This document shows, in pieces, positions 15,944-49,942 of a DNA stretch of 64,000 nt (position 1 is the first letter of the stretch; every line of letters begins with the position of its first letter). The notes under the pieces were generated by a model. It searched no databases. It was given only the letters and a program-made list of their open reading frames with translations, and was not told the origin of the DNA. Origin of the DNA: Octopus sinensis (lineage: Eukaryota); NCBI RefSeq assembly GCF_006345805.1, contig NC_043000.1, forward strand, positions 99,510,001 to 99,574,000, in the 5' to 3' direction. Made by a program: the position numbers and the translations under genes.

Positions 15944-16043
15944 ACTTCATACTTGAGGCTCTGATGAAGCAATAATGTGTTACTCAAGCACTCAACTGAA
16001 TCCACTGCATCTTATAGCGGAAACAGTTGTAAGCTGATGAAGT
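15944..16043 (+). ncRNA. Type I hammerhead ribozyme motif
   Basis: ggct-CTGATGA(15961)-stem II-GAAA(16020)-cagttg-TA-agct. Distal stem I acttcat/atgaagt. The stem I bulge cttgag is complementary to ctcaag in loop II. Confidence 0.7.
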
Positions 16044-20704: not shown

Positions 20705-21600
20705 AGTTATGTTTTGTAATGTGCATTATCATCCTGAAAGATTGTGTTTCCCTCCGGAAACAGTTCCGCAACCATAGGACGAATTTGATCAGATAAATTG
20801 CTTAAATAGTCTTGACTATTAATTCTGCCATGAAGGGAAGCCAGCGGATTTCTAAGATATAGCCCCCGCCCTTCGATCATCACAGATCTTCATCCATGGT
20901 TAACAGTTGGAAGAAGGCAATCTGGGTCACTTGCTTCTTTTGGTTGTCTCCACACATATGTAGACTCGGCCAGTGGTCGTAAATAAGGTAAAGGATGACT
21001 CATCCGAGAAAATAACCATTCTTCCACTGCTCTATTCTGTAGGTTTTTACTCCACTCTAAACACTTTGCAATGTTTGTTTCTGAAAGTAGTGGTTTTCTG
21101 ATTGCAGCCCTCCTGTGAAATCCAGCTTTGTACAGCTCCCGGCTAACAGTTTTTTTGGAAACTGGGTTCTCGAGGTGGTCATTAAACTCTGCAGTAATTT
21201 TAGGAGCTATACTTTTGTGATCCTTTCTAACAATTCATGTAAGCATCCAACGGTCCCTATCTGAAAGTTTTGGTTTTCTTCTGGAGTTGTGTTTTGATGA
21301 GGTGGTTTTTCCCTCTTTCGCAAAGGCTGTCATTACTTTTGAGACCGTACTTCCTGATACACCAAAACATTTCATTATACTAGCACCTGTCATATGAGCA
21401 CCAACAATTTGACCTCTTTGAAAGTGCGATAGATCTGTCATTTTAATGAATTTTAATTACCTTTTTCTGATGATATCTGAAAAGAAACTGCAATTTTAGC
21501 AATACATATTAAGCAACGGCAATAATAAATCAAGAAAAACATAAAAATGAGTGTTTTATAGATATTTCAAAATTATGATGCTAGGAGTTACCATTATTTT
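20705..21600 (-). mobile_element. Tc1-like transposase pseudogene fragment
   Basis: MTDLSHFQRGQIVGA..HTH, then VIFSDESSF, VWRQPKE, LLPTVNHG, IFQDDNA, with frameshifts. Confidence 0.9.
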
Positions 21601-23415: not shown

Positions 23416-23447
<32 letters not shown>

Positions 23448-23449
<2 letters not shown>

Positions 23450-24195
23450 TACAAAATTAGAGAATGGAGAAACATACTTAAATCAGTAAAACATCAACTA
23501 TCCGATGATACTCAATCCATACTTTAATACACCATTACATATGAGTAAAGGCAATATATAAAATGAAATGAGATATACAGTAATAGTAAAAAGATAAAGA
23601 GATATAAGTAAAAAATTTTCAAATATAATATGCAAATAAATCAAAACTGACAGCTGTTTCGGCAGTGAGGACAGTCATACCTCATTTAACCTATAAGCCA
23701 TAAAGGCAGGTATAAATGAGGCATTAACAAGGATGCCCCACGGCCTCTTCAGAGAATTAAATTAAATTTGTTATAATAGTGAAAAATATTATACAATCAT
23801 ATACATATAAATATAAAAATATAAAAATATAAAAATGTAAAATATAAAAACTTATACATCATAATGCTACACTTATATAATATAATACACATTTGTACAA
23901 AAAAGGAAGGTAAACAGAACAAAATAAAACAAAATATATAATAGTGTATATATTAATATTAATAAGTACCGATATTATACATATTTGGCTAATAGTTTTT
24001 TTTATATAAAATTAATTTTGTAGTATTAATTTACGGCAATATTATTACCTTTACCCATATAATGCAATAGATGAACTGATTGTTTGACAATTTTTAACAT
24101 CTATGTATTAATTTTGTTGGGTACCTATCTAGCAGTATATTGGATATATATTATCCCATGGTGGGTTGAATTTTCAACCCCTATCTCATTTTATA
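23448..24195 (-). mobile_element. AT-rich hammerhead-bearing element (Penelope pLTR/retrozyme-like)
   Basis: Bounded by (TA)n runs and contains the hammerhead at 23643-23760. Boundaries are inferred. Confidence 0.5.
23643..23760 (-). ncRNA. Type I hammerhead ribozyme with an intact core and an 85-nt stem II
   Basis: Minus strand ct-CTGAAGA-ggc...gcc-GAAA-cagctg-TC-ag. Stem II pairs atgcctcattta/taaatgaggtat, acct/aggt and gcc/ggc. Confidence 0.85.
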
Positions 24196-24220
24196 ACCTA
24201 TATATATATATATATATATA

Positions 24221-25931: not shown

Positions 25932-27399
25932 GCCCAGAGCTACGGTAGTAAACACTTGCTCCTGGTGCTGTGCAGGGGGATTGTTAAATAGCAAGTTAAA
26001 TATTTCCTCAGGGTGAGAATTAGACACAAAAAAAAAATCACATCATAAGTGACCGTGTGATCATCAACAGACTCTACATATCAATAATGTTTGTGCATGT
26101 GCATATTAATATTTAAAAAAAAAACATTATATATCTATGTCTTTTATTTATTTGTATTTGTGTGTCTGTATTAAATTTATTTGCATGTATGCACGTTAAT
26201 ATTAAAAAAAAACATTGTGTATCTGCTTTTGTTTTTTTTTGTGTGCATATGTATGGTAATATGTTTGATCATGTGATAGTGTTAGAAATTACATAACTTA
26301 CTACAGGTATGCTATTGTATTCTACATCATCAAAATATGTGTTGCAAACAATTTTATCATTCAACAAAATATTATTATTATTATTATTATTACCTGATTA
26401 TATCTAAAAATTAATTATTTCATATTTTATTCCACATAACTTAATATAATATTATTGTAATTATACTTTATAATATGTATTTATATCTATTAAATTATCC
26501 AATTTATATTTTATCCTATTATTTTACATTATTTTAATTTTATTTGTAGTTTTTAAATACGAATTTATATGAGTGCATCCATGTTAAACATTTATCATGC
26601 CTACAGTTAAGAATTTTGTGCTTAGATTTTGAAATCTGGAAGATTTCATTAATAGAAAGATCATAACAGGTATTGGCTACTTTATAGGCTCTAACATGGC
26701 TGATGGTTTCTCACTTGGGGTTAAAATCCTTATTTTCGTCCTTTAATTGCCAAATAAATTTGCTTGGACTGGTGCTGATTGATTTATTTTTGTTTCTAAA
26801 TGTGTTTTCATGGTTGCCGATTCTTCGCTTAATAAAATTTGCCATGGAACCTATGTAATAATAATTTAGTCTCAGATTCTATTTTGCCTCTATATACCAC
26901 ACCTTTCTGTTGGCAAAAATTATTAAGCCAACAGTTATCTTTAAATTTGCAATCACAGTATTTTTGTCCTTCCCTATAAATCTGTAGTCAAAATTAATCT
27001 TCTCCATAGTGTTAGTTTTTTTCCCTTATAATTCCATGGTTAAAATTGGAGAATATGTGGGTTATCTCCCTTTCTTCACTTGGAGATCTAATTTCTTGCT
27101 TATTAGAATTGGGAATTATTCTGGTTGCTTAGATATTATCATAGCACATATTTCTATTGTTATAGAAACTGTTCAGTTTTTTTGTCATTTAGTAAATAAA
27201 TAAACTAAGAAACATTAAGATGGAAAAAACAAATTTAACTAATTCCATGTTAATTATCTCATAGTACTTATTTTCTTCAATAAAATATTTCGAAATAATT
27301 CTATTAAAAAATTTAATTAAATTACTTTTAACTTGTTTAGCAAATGGTATTATTAACCATATAATATCGTTTTTATTAGAAATTTTATTAAAATTATCT

Positions 27400-27792
27400 C
27401 AGGAGTGGCTGTGTGGTAACTAGCTTGCTTACCAACCCCATTGTTCTGGGTTCAGTCCTACTGCCTAGCATCTTGGGCAAGTGTCTTCTATTATAGCCTC
27501 GGGCCGACCAAAGCCTTGTGAGTAGATTTGGTAGACAGAAACTGAAAGAAGCCCGTCGTATATATATATATATGTGTGTGTTTGTGTATCTGTGTTTGAC
27601 CCCCAACATCGCTTGACAACTGATGCTGGTGTCTTTATGTCCCCATCACTTAGCGGTTCAGCAAAAGAGACTGATAGAATAAGTACTAGTCTTACAAAGA
27701 ATAAGTCCTGGAGTTGATTTGCTCGACTAAAGCCAGTGCTCCAGCATAGCTGCACTCAAATGGTTGAAACAAATAAAAGAAAAAGAAAAAAA
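27400..27792 (+). mobile_element. SINE family A inserted in the Penelope element
   Basis: caggagtggctgtgtggtaa ... gtgctccagcatagctgca..aaacaaataaaag. Confidence 0.9.
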
Positions 27793-27907
27793 AATTCTGG
27801 TTTATATTCATAAATGGGTATGCTGTTTAGTTTTATTTTTATGAATTTTATTATCAAGGCTTTGGGTACCGACTGCTTTATTGATTTTTAACTCTATTTT
27901 TCTTATT

Positions 27908-28715
27908 TCATCATCATCATCATCGTTTAACATCCGCTTTCCATGCTAGCATGGGTTGGACGGTTCAACTGGGGTCTGGGAAGCCCGAAGGCTGCACCAG
28001 GCCAGTCAGTTCTGGTAGAGTTTCTACAGCTGGATGCCCTTCCTAACGCCAACCACTCCGTGAGTGTAGTGGGTGCTTTTTTTGTGCCACCGACACAGGT
28101 GCCAGACGAGGCTGGCGAACGGCCACACTCGGATGGTGCTTTTTATGTGCCACCGACACAGGTGCCAGACGAGGCTGGCGAACGGCCACGCTCGGATGGT
28201 GTTTTTTATGTGCCACCGACACAGGTGCCAGACGAGGCTGGCGAACGGCCACGCTCGGATGATGCTTTTTACGTGCCACCGGCACGGAAGCCAGGCGAGG
28301 CTGTCATGGCCACGATCGGATGGTGTTTGTTACGTGCCCACAGCACGGAGGCCAGTCGATGCGGTACTGGCTACGGCCACGTTCGGATGGTTTTCTTATG
28401 TGCCACCGGCACTGGTACCACAAAAATACAAATTCCACTGATGTTCATCGATTTTGATTTGATTTGATTTTCACTTGCCTCAACAGGTCTTCACAAGTGT
28501 CCCAAGAAGGAAGGTATGCACAGGTGGACTGACTACGTCCCAGGTAGGGGCCATGGGTTATGGCCTCACGTGTCCTGCCGGGTCTTCTCGCGCACAGCAT
28601 ACTTCCAAAGGTCTCGGTCTCTGGTCATTTCCTCAGTGAGACCTAAAGCGCGAAGGTCATTCTTCACCACCTCGTCCCAGGTTTTCCTGGGTCTACCTCT
28701 TCCACAGGTTCCCTC
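27908..28715 (-). mobile_element. RTE-clade LINE 3' end (ORF C-terminus, long 3' UTR with 63-bp repeats, (GAT)n tail)
   Basis: Minus strand EGTCGRGRPRKTWDEVVKNDLRALGLTEEMTRDRDLWKYAVREKTRQDT*. Three near-identical 63-bp units at 28073-28270. Confidence 0.9.
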
Positions 28716-29562
28716 ATAATTAATAAATATGTATTCATAATCATTACTGTTATATAGATGTTGTTATAATACATAGCTTCAGGTCCTTTGCTTTTATGAT
28801 TAAATTTTAGATTTACTTGCTCTGTATTATTATCATTCATACTGTACAAGTTTTGTTCACTAATTCCGGAGTGTAATATTTTATTGTTATTTAGTGTATA
28901 TTTATTAAGACCATAATGCCTATTCTTCCTTGAGTATTTAGATTTTTGGTCACTTACCGTCTTATCCAAGATATTCCTATATTGTAGCTATTACTCAATT
29001 TGTGATATTTTAATTTTTGTTTATAAAGAGCCTTCCTATGCCAAGTTATAATAATCTATATTATTGTTAAAAATGTCCTTATTTGATGATACAAAATTTT
29101 TCTTGAAATATTCCAGACTAAAGAATTTGTGACAGATCTAGGATGATTACTTCAAACATTTTTATACCTTAGATTGGTATTAGGTTTATGGTAGGCTTTA
29201 TGCTTCACCGTACCAAAGTTTAGGTTCTCATCTAAGAAGTTGACTGAATTATGTTAATTTTCAATATTAATGGATAGACTATTGTTTTTAAAGAATTTAT
29301 GAAATTTCTTTTTATATAATTCCAGTTTCCTATTAGATAGGTTTCTAAGGGTAAAAACATTTCATCCCTATACAGAGCCCCACCTGACAAGTTCAGGAAA
29401 ATCTCTAAAGTTGAATAAAATATATATATCCACTAAATTGGTGATATGTGCCAAATCAGCTGATCCCATTGTTATATCAAAGTTGTTGCTAGTATCCTCT
29501 CTAAACGAATATTGGTTGTCAAATTTGTTTTTCTGGCAGCTAAGATAATGTTAATTTCATTC

Positions 29563-37301: not shown

Positions 37302-38335
37302 CAGACATGCAGGAAATAAATAGACACCTTTAATTTTCAGAATCTTTTTAATACGCAAAGCGAACAATTGAAATGTAATTGATAGGTAGGACTATATACT
37401 TTAGTATTTTGCCGTTTTTAATTCAGAAACTCTTTTTGGCATTGAACTGATGTGCTTTGTGATTGTCTCTTGTGGAATTTCTGCCCACTTTTCATGCAAC
37501 AATTGAAACAATTCATCTTTAGATTTAAGATTCTGCCAAGTTTTTTGTATAGCTCTATCTAGTATGCTCCAAAGATTTTCAATTGGGTTCATGTCAGGAG
37601 ATTGGCTCGGCCAAGGAAGCTTTTTGATCCCATTTTCAGTCAACCATTGTTGATTCCTTTCAATGTGTGGTATGGAGCCCCATCTTCCATGAATAAAAAC
37701 TCATTTTTCGTTATTATTGTGTGAATACATCGGAAATAGTGCTTGCTTAACCCTTTTAATACCAACCCGGCTGAAACCGCCTCTGGCTCTGTAGTACAAA
37801 TGTTTTATTTTCATAAGTTTTGAATTAAAATCTTCCACCACACCTTAGTCACAATTTATGTTCCTAACACCAGCTGAATGATAACTAAGTTATTTTACTA
37901 AATTCTTTGTTATATTTGAAGTAATTGAAAGAGACACAGAGCATCTCAAAATAAATATGGTAACGAAAGGGTTAAGTATTTCGATGTATTTTTCAGAGTT
38001 TATGGTGCCAATACATTCGATCAGAACGACCATTGCTGGTGACAGCTCTCCATACCATTTCACAGATACCACCAAGTTTCACAGTTGGTTGGAGTTGTTT
38101 CAAATTATATTCTTGATTGGGAAGCCTCCAGACCCAAATACGTCCACTGACTGAAAATAATGCAAATCTAGATTCATCTGAGAAAATCACTTTATCCCAA
38201 AATGAACTGGATTTTTCTGACATCTCCTTAGCCTATTTCTTTCTTTTCATGATATTAATCGGTTGAAGGAGAGGTTTTCTTCTAGCTGCTCTTCCATAAT
38301 AGCCAAGCTTATGCAGATACGTAACACACGTTCTT
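37302..38335 (-). mobile_element. Tc1 (DD34E-type) transposase pseudogene
   Basis: RAARRKPLL, WDKVIFSDESRF, FMEDGAPYH, LPWPSQSPDMNPIENLW. Interrupted by a MITE. Confidence 0.9.
37751..37971. mobile_element. piggyBac-type MITE with TTAA TSD
   Basis: ttaa|cccttttaatacca ... tggtaacgaaaggg|ttaa, splitting the Tc1 ORF. Confidence 0.9.
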
Positions 38336-49171: not shown

Positions 49172-49942
49172 ACATAATGGAAACTAATATGCACAAATCA
49201 AATTTTGCAACATCACTACATCACATATAAAAAAATGACATCGCTTAATTGGCAGCCAATTTCAGCTTGCACACCTGTGCTCTTTCCAAAACTTGCACCA
49301 TAACCCCCTCAAGAGTTTCAGACCCCACTTCTCTGAATTCCCTTTTGATGTTCTCCTTCAGTTGCACCAGGGTCTCCTGTTTGTTGACATAAACCCTCTC
49401 TTTCAGTCATCCCTGCAAGAAAAAAATCCAGTCGAGTCAAGTCTGGGGAACGTGTAGGCCAGTTGATATTGCCGTGGCAGAGGATTATTCTCTCTCCAAA
49501 GCACTGCCATTGCAACTGCATTGATTCTCTTGCAGTATGAGCAGTTGCCCCATCTTGCTGGAACCATGTGTGAGGTCTACTTTGAATGGCCGGGTGCAAA
49601 AAGGTCTCAATCATGGATACCTGAAAGAGAGGATTTACGTAAAAAAACTGAAGACCCTGCTGCAACTGAAGGGGAACATCAATAAAGAAATCAGAGAAGT
49701 TGGGTATGAAACTCTTGAGGGTGTTAAGATGCAAGTTTTGGAAAGTGCGCGGGCATGTGAAGCTGAAAATGGCTGCCATTTAAGCAATGTCATTTTTGAT
49801 ATATGATGTGTTGCAAAATTTGACTTGTGCATATTAATTTCCATTATGTCCCTTATATTGTATCAAAATTTCATGCATTTATTTGTACAGTTAAGAAAGT
49901 TATTAAATTTTGAAACCCATCGTTGACTTTTGGGACGCCCTG
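49172..49942. mobile_element. DD41D (rosa/Visitor-type) transposase relic: two 3' ends in inverted orientation
   Basis: Minus strand WFQQD-x41-D (WPTRSPDLTRLDFFL). Plus strand GYLKERIY..ACEAENGCHL. Right TIR gacttttgggacgccctg|ta. Confidence 0.85.

What the first reader, a model, noticed from the sequence alone, without database searches (positions are those of the whole stretch)
23643..23760. Hammerhead with an intact core and an unusually long (85-nt) stem II
The minus strand has every core nucleotide (CUGAAGA, G10.1-C11.1, GAAA, GUC site). Stem II extends through a 12-bp helix (atgcctcattta/taaatgaggtat) and further helices. Stem I is 2 bp, a UU/UU loop, then AU-rich pairs. Minimal Penelope hammerheads usually have short stems II, so the extension may be an added domain. 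This is the best candidate for activity.
Basis: partly seen in the sequence, partly recalled or inferred. Interest (0 to 1): 0.75.

Follow-up and report, generated by a model that had tools for sequence, protein, structure and literature searches.

The report
Long-stemmed hammerhead in Penelope retrotransposon
This is a complete hammerhead-ribozyme motif in a truncated copy of a recently spreading jumping gene; its unusually long hairpin arm is shared and kept paired across the gene's family, and it is predicted to cut RNA only when two copies pair or a protein helps, not alone.

Summary
The motif is real: all core bases, an 85-nt stem II (z -6.4) and a GUC site at 23649, minus strand. It lies in an ORF-less, two-armed insertion (23446-24198) in (TA)n, from a young Penelope-like element. 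A fuller copy elsewhere encodes a 960-aa protein with Hydra-clade motifs. The long stem II is a family trait: 83-113 nt in this lineage, tracking the RT tree and shortest in the youngest copies, and 55-60 nt in sister families. Published Hydra hammerheads have 10-24 nt. Seven of 29 pairs covary across 14 subfamily representatives. The monomer is predicted inactive, a dimer is favoured, and this copy has no partner in the window. Genomic copies read through the cut site (0 versus 125), so uncut RNA is the integration template. Cleavage is untested. This scan noted the same long-stem architecture before, in this genome and others. Verdict: new variant of a known kind; role of the arm open.

The parts
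23746..23752 (-). Hammerhead core 5' strand C3-A9 (CUGAAGA)
23661..23745 (-). Stem II, 85 nt: basal GGC/GCC helix, mismatch, 8-bp helix with a 3' U bulge, 5-nt pyrimidine bulge, 12-bp middle helix, variable apex
23713..23724 (-). Middle helix 5' strand, the most sequence-conserved part of the extension
   Evidence: 92% identity to the 86- and 100-nt subfamilies
23677..23688 (-). Middle helix 3' strand
23657..23660 (-). Core G12-A13-A14-A15.1
23650..23657 (-). Stem III as a loopless palindrome ACAGCUGU; predicted 8-bp dimer helix
23649..23649 (-). C17; predicted cut between 23649 and 23648
   Evidence: cleavage untested
23753..23770 (-). Stem I 5' strand (2 bp, UU/UU loop, AU-rich pairs)
23633..23648 (-). 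Stem I 3' strand
23446..24008 (-). Arm 1 of the insertion: 563 nt of the element's 3' UTR, ending at the shared 3' end 'site 1' against (TA)n
   Evidence: 97.5% identical to L033
24013..24198 (+). Arm 2, inverted: 14 nt before site 1 plus the ~172-nt tail, ending at shared 3' end 'site 2' against (TA)n
23418..23445 (.). (TA)n target, left
24199..24220 (.). (TA)n target, right

Best explanation
This is a type I hammerhead motif in the 3' repeat of a truncated copy of a young Penelope-like retrotransposon with Hydra-clade motifs; it likely cuts the element's RNA after C23649 only when two copies pair through the palindromic stem III or the element's protein assists, and its 85-nt stem II is a family-wide, pairing-conserved hairpin that likely serves as a rigid scaffold or docking arm. 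Shown: motif, family, copy structure, covariation, read-through of the cut site in genomic copies. Predicted by folding: a lone motif is trapped with C3-U4-G5 paired to the CAG of stem III, and palindrome pairing frees the core. Inferred: in tandem arrays two ribozymes 5,570 nt apart would pair and release a unit-length RNA whose 5' end lies about 515 nt before the ORF start, while uncut RNA is reverse transcribed from two fixed sites about 200 and 375 nt downstream of the cut. This single truncated copy is likely a passive passenger.
For: Family: 40 of 40 scored matches are 100% identical over 161 nt, of 1165 candidates; 497 exact matches to core plus stem II base. L033 holds repeat-ORF-repeat with a 960-aa frame bearing RWR, DKT, YRDD, CxCx5C, VY..YIG, CxxC and CxH, matching the Hydra description. 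Stem II: 83-86 nt in 101, 99-100 nt in 35 and 103-113 nt in 33 of 169 rows; length follows the RT tree; 55-60 nt in 19 of 19 sister-family loci L067-L085. Covariation: 94.8% of cells paired, 7 of 29 pairs with two-sided change, score 0.200 against 0.150, 0 of 500 shuffles; slid controls 31-45% paired. Stepwise series U-A, U.G, C-G at columns 76/132. Sister families carry different palindromes (ACGAUCGU, ACAAUUGU, ACACGUGU). Folding: P(A15.1-U16.1) 0.001, P(C3:CAG) 0.81; active double ribozyme -90.5 against -77.8 kcal/mol for two active monomers. Precedent: PLE hammerheads work as dimers with low activity (PMC4209133); the Poseidon one needs protein and is dispensable for insertion in vitro (PMC11167929).
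Against: No cleavage or expression data. No genomic trace of cut RNA: 0 copies with a non-C before the post-cut 33-mer against 125 with C; 29 of 30 arms chosen on downstream sequence run through the site and none starts at it. The constrained active dimer (-90.5) is still 2.4 kcal/mol above the unconstrained fold (-92.9). A 100-nt subfamily spread widely with a U4C core (32 of 35 rows; 1383 candidates), a change reported to lower activity (PMC3088659 passage). Stem II of the 103- and 109-nt forms folds only weakly (z -1.6, -2.0), as do three of six sister stems (z -1.2 to -2.0). The covariation set is 14 related, hand-picked rows of 88 distinct; the 105-113-nt group was left out; pairs with two-sided change reached 16 of 500 shuffles and further pair types 476 of 500. 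Pfam found neither RT nor GIY-YIG in the protein. The tree is a quick one with open forks and 6 rows without an assigned ribozyme.
Confidence: 0.6

Rival explanations
1. Stem II extension is mainly a recognition handle for the element's own RT-endonuclease, so selection acts on protein binding rather than on cutting.
For: The middle helix 5' strand keeps 92% identity out to the 100-nt subfamilies while UTR flanks fall to about 30-60%. The core tolerated U4C in a successful subfamily. Integration uses uncut RNA. Four copies end 5' at the base of stem II, 91-92 nt before the cut.
Against: Apex length and sequence vary; the middle helix is not recognisable in the 109-nt form (50% and 33%). In Poseidon, RNA truncated to +20 of the ORF still supports insertion, and the required part lies downstream. 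Paired sites evolve slowly anyway, and AT-rich flank alignments are unreliable. The four truncations are a post hoc cluster among about 500 arms.
Confidence: 0.2
2. The extension has no function of its own: any closed stem II serves, it grew by insertion in an AT-rich UTR, and pairing is kept only so that the core does not misfold.
For: Length varies from 55 to 113 nt and has shrunk by about 25 nt along the lineage. Short 16- and 21-nt stems II occur in the same genome and in all published Hydra elements. Descriptor searches cap stem II length, so long forms may be common and merely unseen (method passages).
Against: Compensatory changes lie up to about 20 pairs from the core, and the 12-bp helix stays 95.8% paired across 14 subfamilies. 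Three distantly related families (about 50% RT identity) all keep a long stem.
Confidence: 0.15
3. The motif is an efficient stand-alone ribozyme, with the long stem II supplying tertiary contacts to stem I that let it cut as a monomer, possibly to allow cap-independent translation of the downstream ORF.
For: A bulge or mismatch 4-7 bp from the core recurs in all three long-stem families. In tandem copies the cut lies about 515 nt before the ATG. Ribozyme-driven translation is reported for viral type I hammerheads (PMC13725137 passages).
Against: Stem III has no loop and is predicted to form in 0.1% of monomers. No complementary partner for the stem II bulges was seen by eye in stem I. Efficient monomer cutting would give copies starting at the cut, and none was found.
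Confidence: 0.05

Closest known systems
Hammerheads of Hydra-clade Penelope-like elements (Craig et al. 2021, PMC8557442; seen: passages, section 11, supplement parts 1-2 of 59 and search hits)
   Same: Sense-strand type I motif near the 3' end; palindromic or near-palindromic stem III; (TA)n targets; protein motifs RWK/RWR, DKT, CxCx5C, CxxC, CxH.
   Different: Published stem II plus loop is 10-24 nt (26 Hydra rows of File S2; 22 nt in Hydra-1_oBim); here 85 nt, 55-113 nt across relatives. Unit length 5.6 kb against under about 3 kb. The longest non-Hydra entry in that file is 53 nt (PLE-X1_sMoe).
Minimal PLE hammerheads (Cervera and de la Pena 2014, PMC4209133; seen: parts 1-2 of 4)
   Same: Short stem I, palindromic stem III, G10.1-C11.1, proposed dimer action, low intrinsic activity.
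   Different: Helix II there is 6-8 bp with an extra base after A9; here about 30 bp and no extra base.
Poseidon element of Anolis (Frangieh et al. 2024, PMC11167929; seen: parts 1-2 of 4)
   Same: Two fixed 3' ends downstream of the ribozyme with a tail between them; AT-rich targets; copies made from uncut RNA.
   Different: There the ribozyme overlaps the ORF start; here it lies about 515 nt before the next ATG, and the tail is about 172 nt, against the 30-40 bp that paper cites for Drosophila Penelope.
Animal non-LTR retrozymes (PMC7229834 passages; bioRxiv 10.64898/2026.07.22.740005 part 1 of 5)
   Same: Type I hammerhead with weak stem III, dimer cleavage, link to PLE repeats.
   Different: Retrozymes are non-coding tandem monomers; this family has a coding master and this copy is a truncated inverted insertion.

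Membership tests
Type I hammerhead ribozyme | Core CUGANGA, GAAA, UH site | tested here: met
Type I hammerhead ribozyme | Three helices around the core, stem I open | tested here: met
   Stem II P(G10.1-C11.1) 0.98; stem I 2 bp P 0.64; stem III only as dimer
Type I hammerhead ribozyme | Canonical loop 2 to stem I tertiary contact | tested here: not met
   No terminal loop at 4 bp; stem II continues for about 30 bp; an alternative contact is not excluded
Type I hammerhead ribozyme | Self-cleavage at C17 | not testable with these tools
   No assay; no genomic copies start at the site
Minimal PLE hammerhead | Palindromic, loop-poor stem III | tested here: met
   ACAGCUGU; other palindromes in sister families
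Minimal PLE hammerhead | Helix II of 6-8 bp with an unpaired base after A9 | tested here: not met
   85 nt, G10.1 follows A9 directly (description)
Minimal PLE hammerhead | Location in the terminal repeat of a PLE | tested here: met
   L033 repeat-ORF-repeat
Hydra clade of PLEs | RWK and DKT motifs before RT | tested here: met
   RWR and DKT in P0001
Hydra clade of PLEs | C-terminal GIY-YIG with CxCx5C linker, CxxC and CxH | tested here: met
   CNCRNKNKC, VYQ..YIG, CSLC, CIH read from the sequence; Pfam gave no supporting hit
Hydra clade of PLEs | Insertion in (TA)n | tested here: met
   Most arm ends abut TA repeats
Hydra clade of PLEs | Generally under 3 kb | tested here: not met
   Unit 5,570 nt; a tendency in the paper, not a strict criterion
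Hydra clade of PLEs | Placement in the clade by RT phylogeny | not tested
   Tree holds only this genome's copies; likeness to Hydra-1_Obim judged by eye
Non-LTR retrozyme | Non-coding tandem monomers, each with a ribozyme | tested here: not met
   Coding master exists; window copy is single and inverted

The most novel reading that the evidence does not exclude
These Penelope-like elements have built a structured RNA domain into hammerhead stem II that their telomerase-related RT-endonuclease binds, coupling ribozyme activation to assembly of a dimeric RNP that copies two RNAs into the two arms of each insertion; the ribozyme would then be a protein-gated switch, with a dated in-genome series (113 to 85 nt) recording how the domain was refined.
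Probability: 0.2. Interest if true: 0.75.

Novelty: new variant of a known kind. Interest (0 to 1): 0.45.

Why it matters
What hammerheads do in Penelope-like elements is an open question: they are conserved, slow in vitro and dispensable for insertion in the one reconstituted system. This family offers an intact 960-aa protein, hundreds of near-identical copies, a natural length series of stem II and a natural U4C variant, so it can separate cutting from protein binding experimentally. It also shows that Rfam models and length-capped descriptors miss a high-copy class of hammerheads. The single window copy itself is likely inert.

Tried and rejected
Rfam: no match over the motif; the miRNA hits are microsatellite noise. 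Pfam on the protein: one chance hit. Metagenome contigs: 185 pattern matches, none a relative, so stem II length outside this genome was not sampled. Sequencing runs: no RNA holder listed; no reads or contigs were laid, so expression is open. Earlier-findings search by sequence gave nothing. Cut-site truncation signature, a lead from e1-8664355: not found here. Naiad clade considered first and rejected: the endonuclease is C-terminal. Chance motif rejected. Retrozyme rejected. Host-gene regulation: no convincing host exon seen among stop-to-stop frames of 70 aa or more, judged by eye; an intronic position is not excluded. Pre-miRNA origin of the hairpin: no Rfam hit, apex not conserved, no small-RNA data; left at low odds. 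The script picked a neighbouring 60-nt motif in L108; the 109-nt form was folded. De-duplication failed, so only loci L197-L226 were counted, by hand. Lunse et al. 2017 is not held.

Full report
Observation. The minus strand of 23753-23647 carries a full type I hammerhead: CUGAAGA at 23752-23746, an 85-nt stem II closed by G10.1-C11.1, GAAA at 23660-23657, U16.1 at 23650 and C17 at 23649. Stem II folds far better than shuffles (z -6.39, 0 of 200). A strict descriptor finds 1 hit in the window and 0 in 300 shuffled windows. Rfam has no match over 23450-24200 at E<=10.

What it sits in. A search of the own genome gave 1165 candidates; 40 of 40 scored are identical over 161 nt. An exact 31-mer of core plus stem II base occurs 497 times, and a 34-mer specific to the youngest subfamily 125 times. 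The window copy has two arms in opposite orientation: 563 nt on the minus strand (23446-24008) and about 186 nt on the plus strand (24013-24198), each ending in (TA)n. Other copies share these two 3' ends and have scattered 5' ends. Locus L033 holds repeat, ORF, repeat, with a 960-aa open frame whose RWR, DKT, YRDD, CxCx5C, VY..YIG, CxxC and CxH motifs fit the Hydra clade as described in section 11 of PMC8557442. Pfam did not recognise it, and no tree with published proteins was made. The repeat landscape and likeness to Hydra-1_Obim (by eye) suggest an octopus-like host; this is inference.

The long stem II is a family trait. Among 169 motif rows from fetched loci (88 distinct; the pattern selects for the palindrome), stem II is 83-86 nt in 101, 99-100 nt in 35 and 103-113 nt in 33. 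On a quick RT tree of 40 rows (1 of 41 dropped as too short, 6 without an assigned ribozyme, assignment by proximity), the longest forms branch deepest and the 85-nt form is at the tip, so the arm has shortened. Two sister families at about 50% RT identity have 55-60 nt in 19 of 19 loci, with other palindromes in stem III; 16-, 21- and 68-nt stems also occur in those loci. The 26 Hydra rows of File S2 of PMC8557442 have 10-24 nt.

Pairing is conserved. On 14 hand-picked subfamily representatives (83-103 nt group; the 105-113-nt group left out), 94.8% of cells pair, 7 of 29 pairs change on both sides, the covariation score is 0.200 against 0.150 with 0 of 500 shuffles as high, and slid controls pair at 31-45% (RNAalifold gives 7 of 25). 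One pair steps U-A, U.G, C-G along the tree order. Caveats: related sequences inflate these controls; the pair count was reached by 16 of 500 shuffles and further pair types by 476 of 500. The 103- and 109-nt forms fold only weakly (z -1.6, -2.0), and sister stems range from z -1.2 to -5.0. The 5' strand of the middle helix keeps 92% identity to the 100-nt subfamilies while flanks drop to about 30-60%, but is not recognisable in the 109-nt form.

Mechanism. Folding predicts that a lone motif pairs C3-U4-G5 with the CAG of stem III (P 0.81) and forms A15.1-U16.1 at P 0.001. Two motifs paired through the palindrome in the active arrangement cost -90.5 kcal/mol against -77.8 for two active monomers and -92.9 for the free fold. 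This matches published dimer action and low activity of PLE hammerheads (PMC4209133, parts 1-2 of 4; review passage PMC6765202) and the protein-assisted Poseidon ribozyme that is dispensable for insertion in vitro (PMC11167929, parts 1-2 of 4). In L033 the two cut sites are 5,570 nt apart and the upstream one lies about 515 nt before the ATG. Genomic copies give no sign of cut templates: 0 matches with a non-C before the post-cut 33-mer against 125 with C (a foreign C would be missed), and 29 of 30 arms chosen on downstream sequence run through the site, one starting 43 nt after it. A successful 100-nt subfamily has U4C in 32 of 35 rows, a change described as lowering activity in vitro yet sufficient in a viroid (PMC3088659 passage); it would also weaken the predicted trap. 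Four copies end 5' at 91-92 nt before the cut, at the base of stem II; of 12 non-C hits, 10 were point changes and 2 truncations. This is a weak, post hoc hint.

This copy. It has no ORF and no second same-family motif in the window, and only 2 proximal stem I pairs against 3-4 in most older subfamilies. Its arms overlap by only 14 nt, so it is not masked by a long inverted repeat, but it would need a partner in trans.

Novelty. Hammerheads in Hydra elements are known. A stem II of this size was not found in print in six searches (listings and the passages named above; 'long stem II' had 0 occurrences in the 15 papers listed). Lunse et al. 2017 is not held, and the supplements of PMC4209133 and PMC11167929 were not read; either could show long forms. 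PMC7229834 and PMC13725137 were seen as passages and the 2026 retrozyme preprint as part 1 of 5. This scan has noted the same architecture before, in this genome and others; those notes are unchecked and are not counted as support. No relatives were found in metagenome contigs. Verdict: new variant of a known kind, interest 0.45.

Noticed in passing
L094:7439-7557 and relatives L137-L166: A high-copy subfamily (99-100% identical copies) carries a U4C core, CCGAAGA, with a GUA site and a 100-nt stem II.
   Followed up: partly
window 15961-16031 (+): A second hammerhead-like motif with a 52-nt weakly folding stem II, imperfect palindrome ACAGUUGU and GUA site; not matched by profiles of the three long-stem families.
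   Followed up: no
window 26555-29558 (-): Decayed remnants of an older element of the same kind (35-51% identity to the 960-aa protein), with no ribozyme found nearby.
   Followed up: partly
L221, L206, L228, L233: Four arms are 5'-truncated at the base of stem II, 91-92 nt before the cut site.
   Followed up: partly
L077:821-911; L074:1704-1743; L074 and L099 minus strand: Other hammerheads with 68-, 21- and 16-nt stem II and palindromic stem III beside these elements.
   Followed up: no
L235, L236 (G000:C30:2408800 and 2410147): Two same-orientation copies 1,347 bp apart, a short tandem that could pair its ribozymes in one transcript.
   Followed up: no
L033:4690-7572: The 960-aa protein has two asparagine-rich insertions between RT and endonuclease, making it longer than the published Hydra proteins seem to be.
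   Followed up: no
window 24027-24198: The tail between the two fixed 3' ends is about 172 nt and is predicted to fold into several hairpins.
   Followed up: partly
window 20893-21456, 37404-38232, 49321-49803: Frames that look like Tc1/mariner transposase remnants (label recalled, not searched).
   Followed up: no
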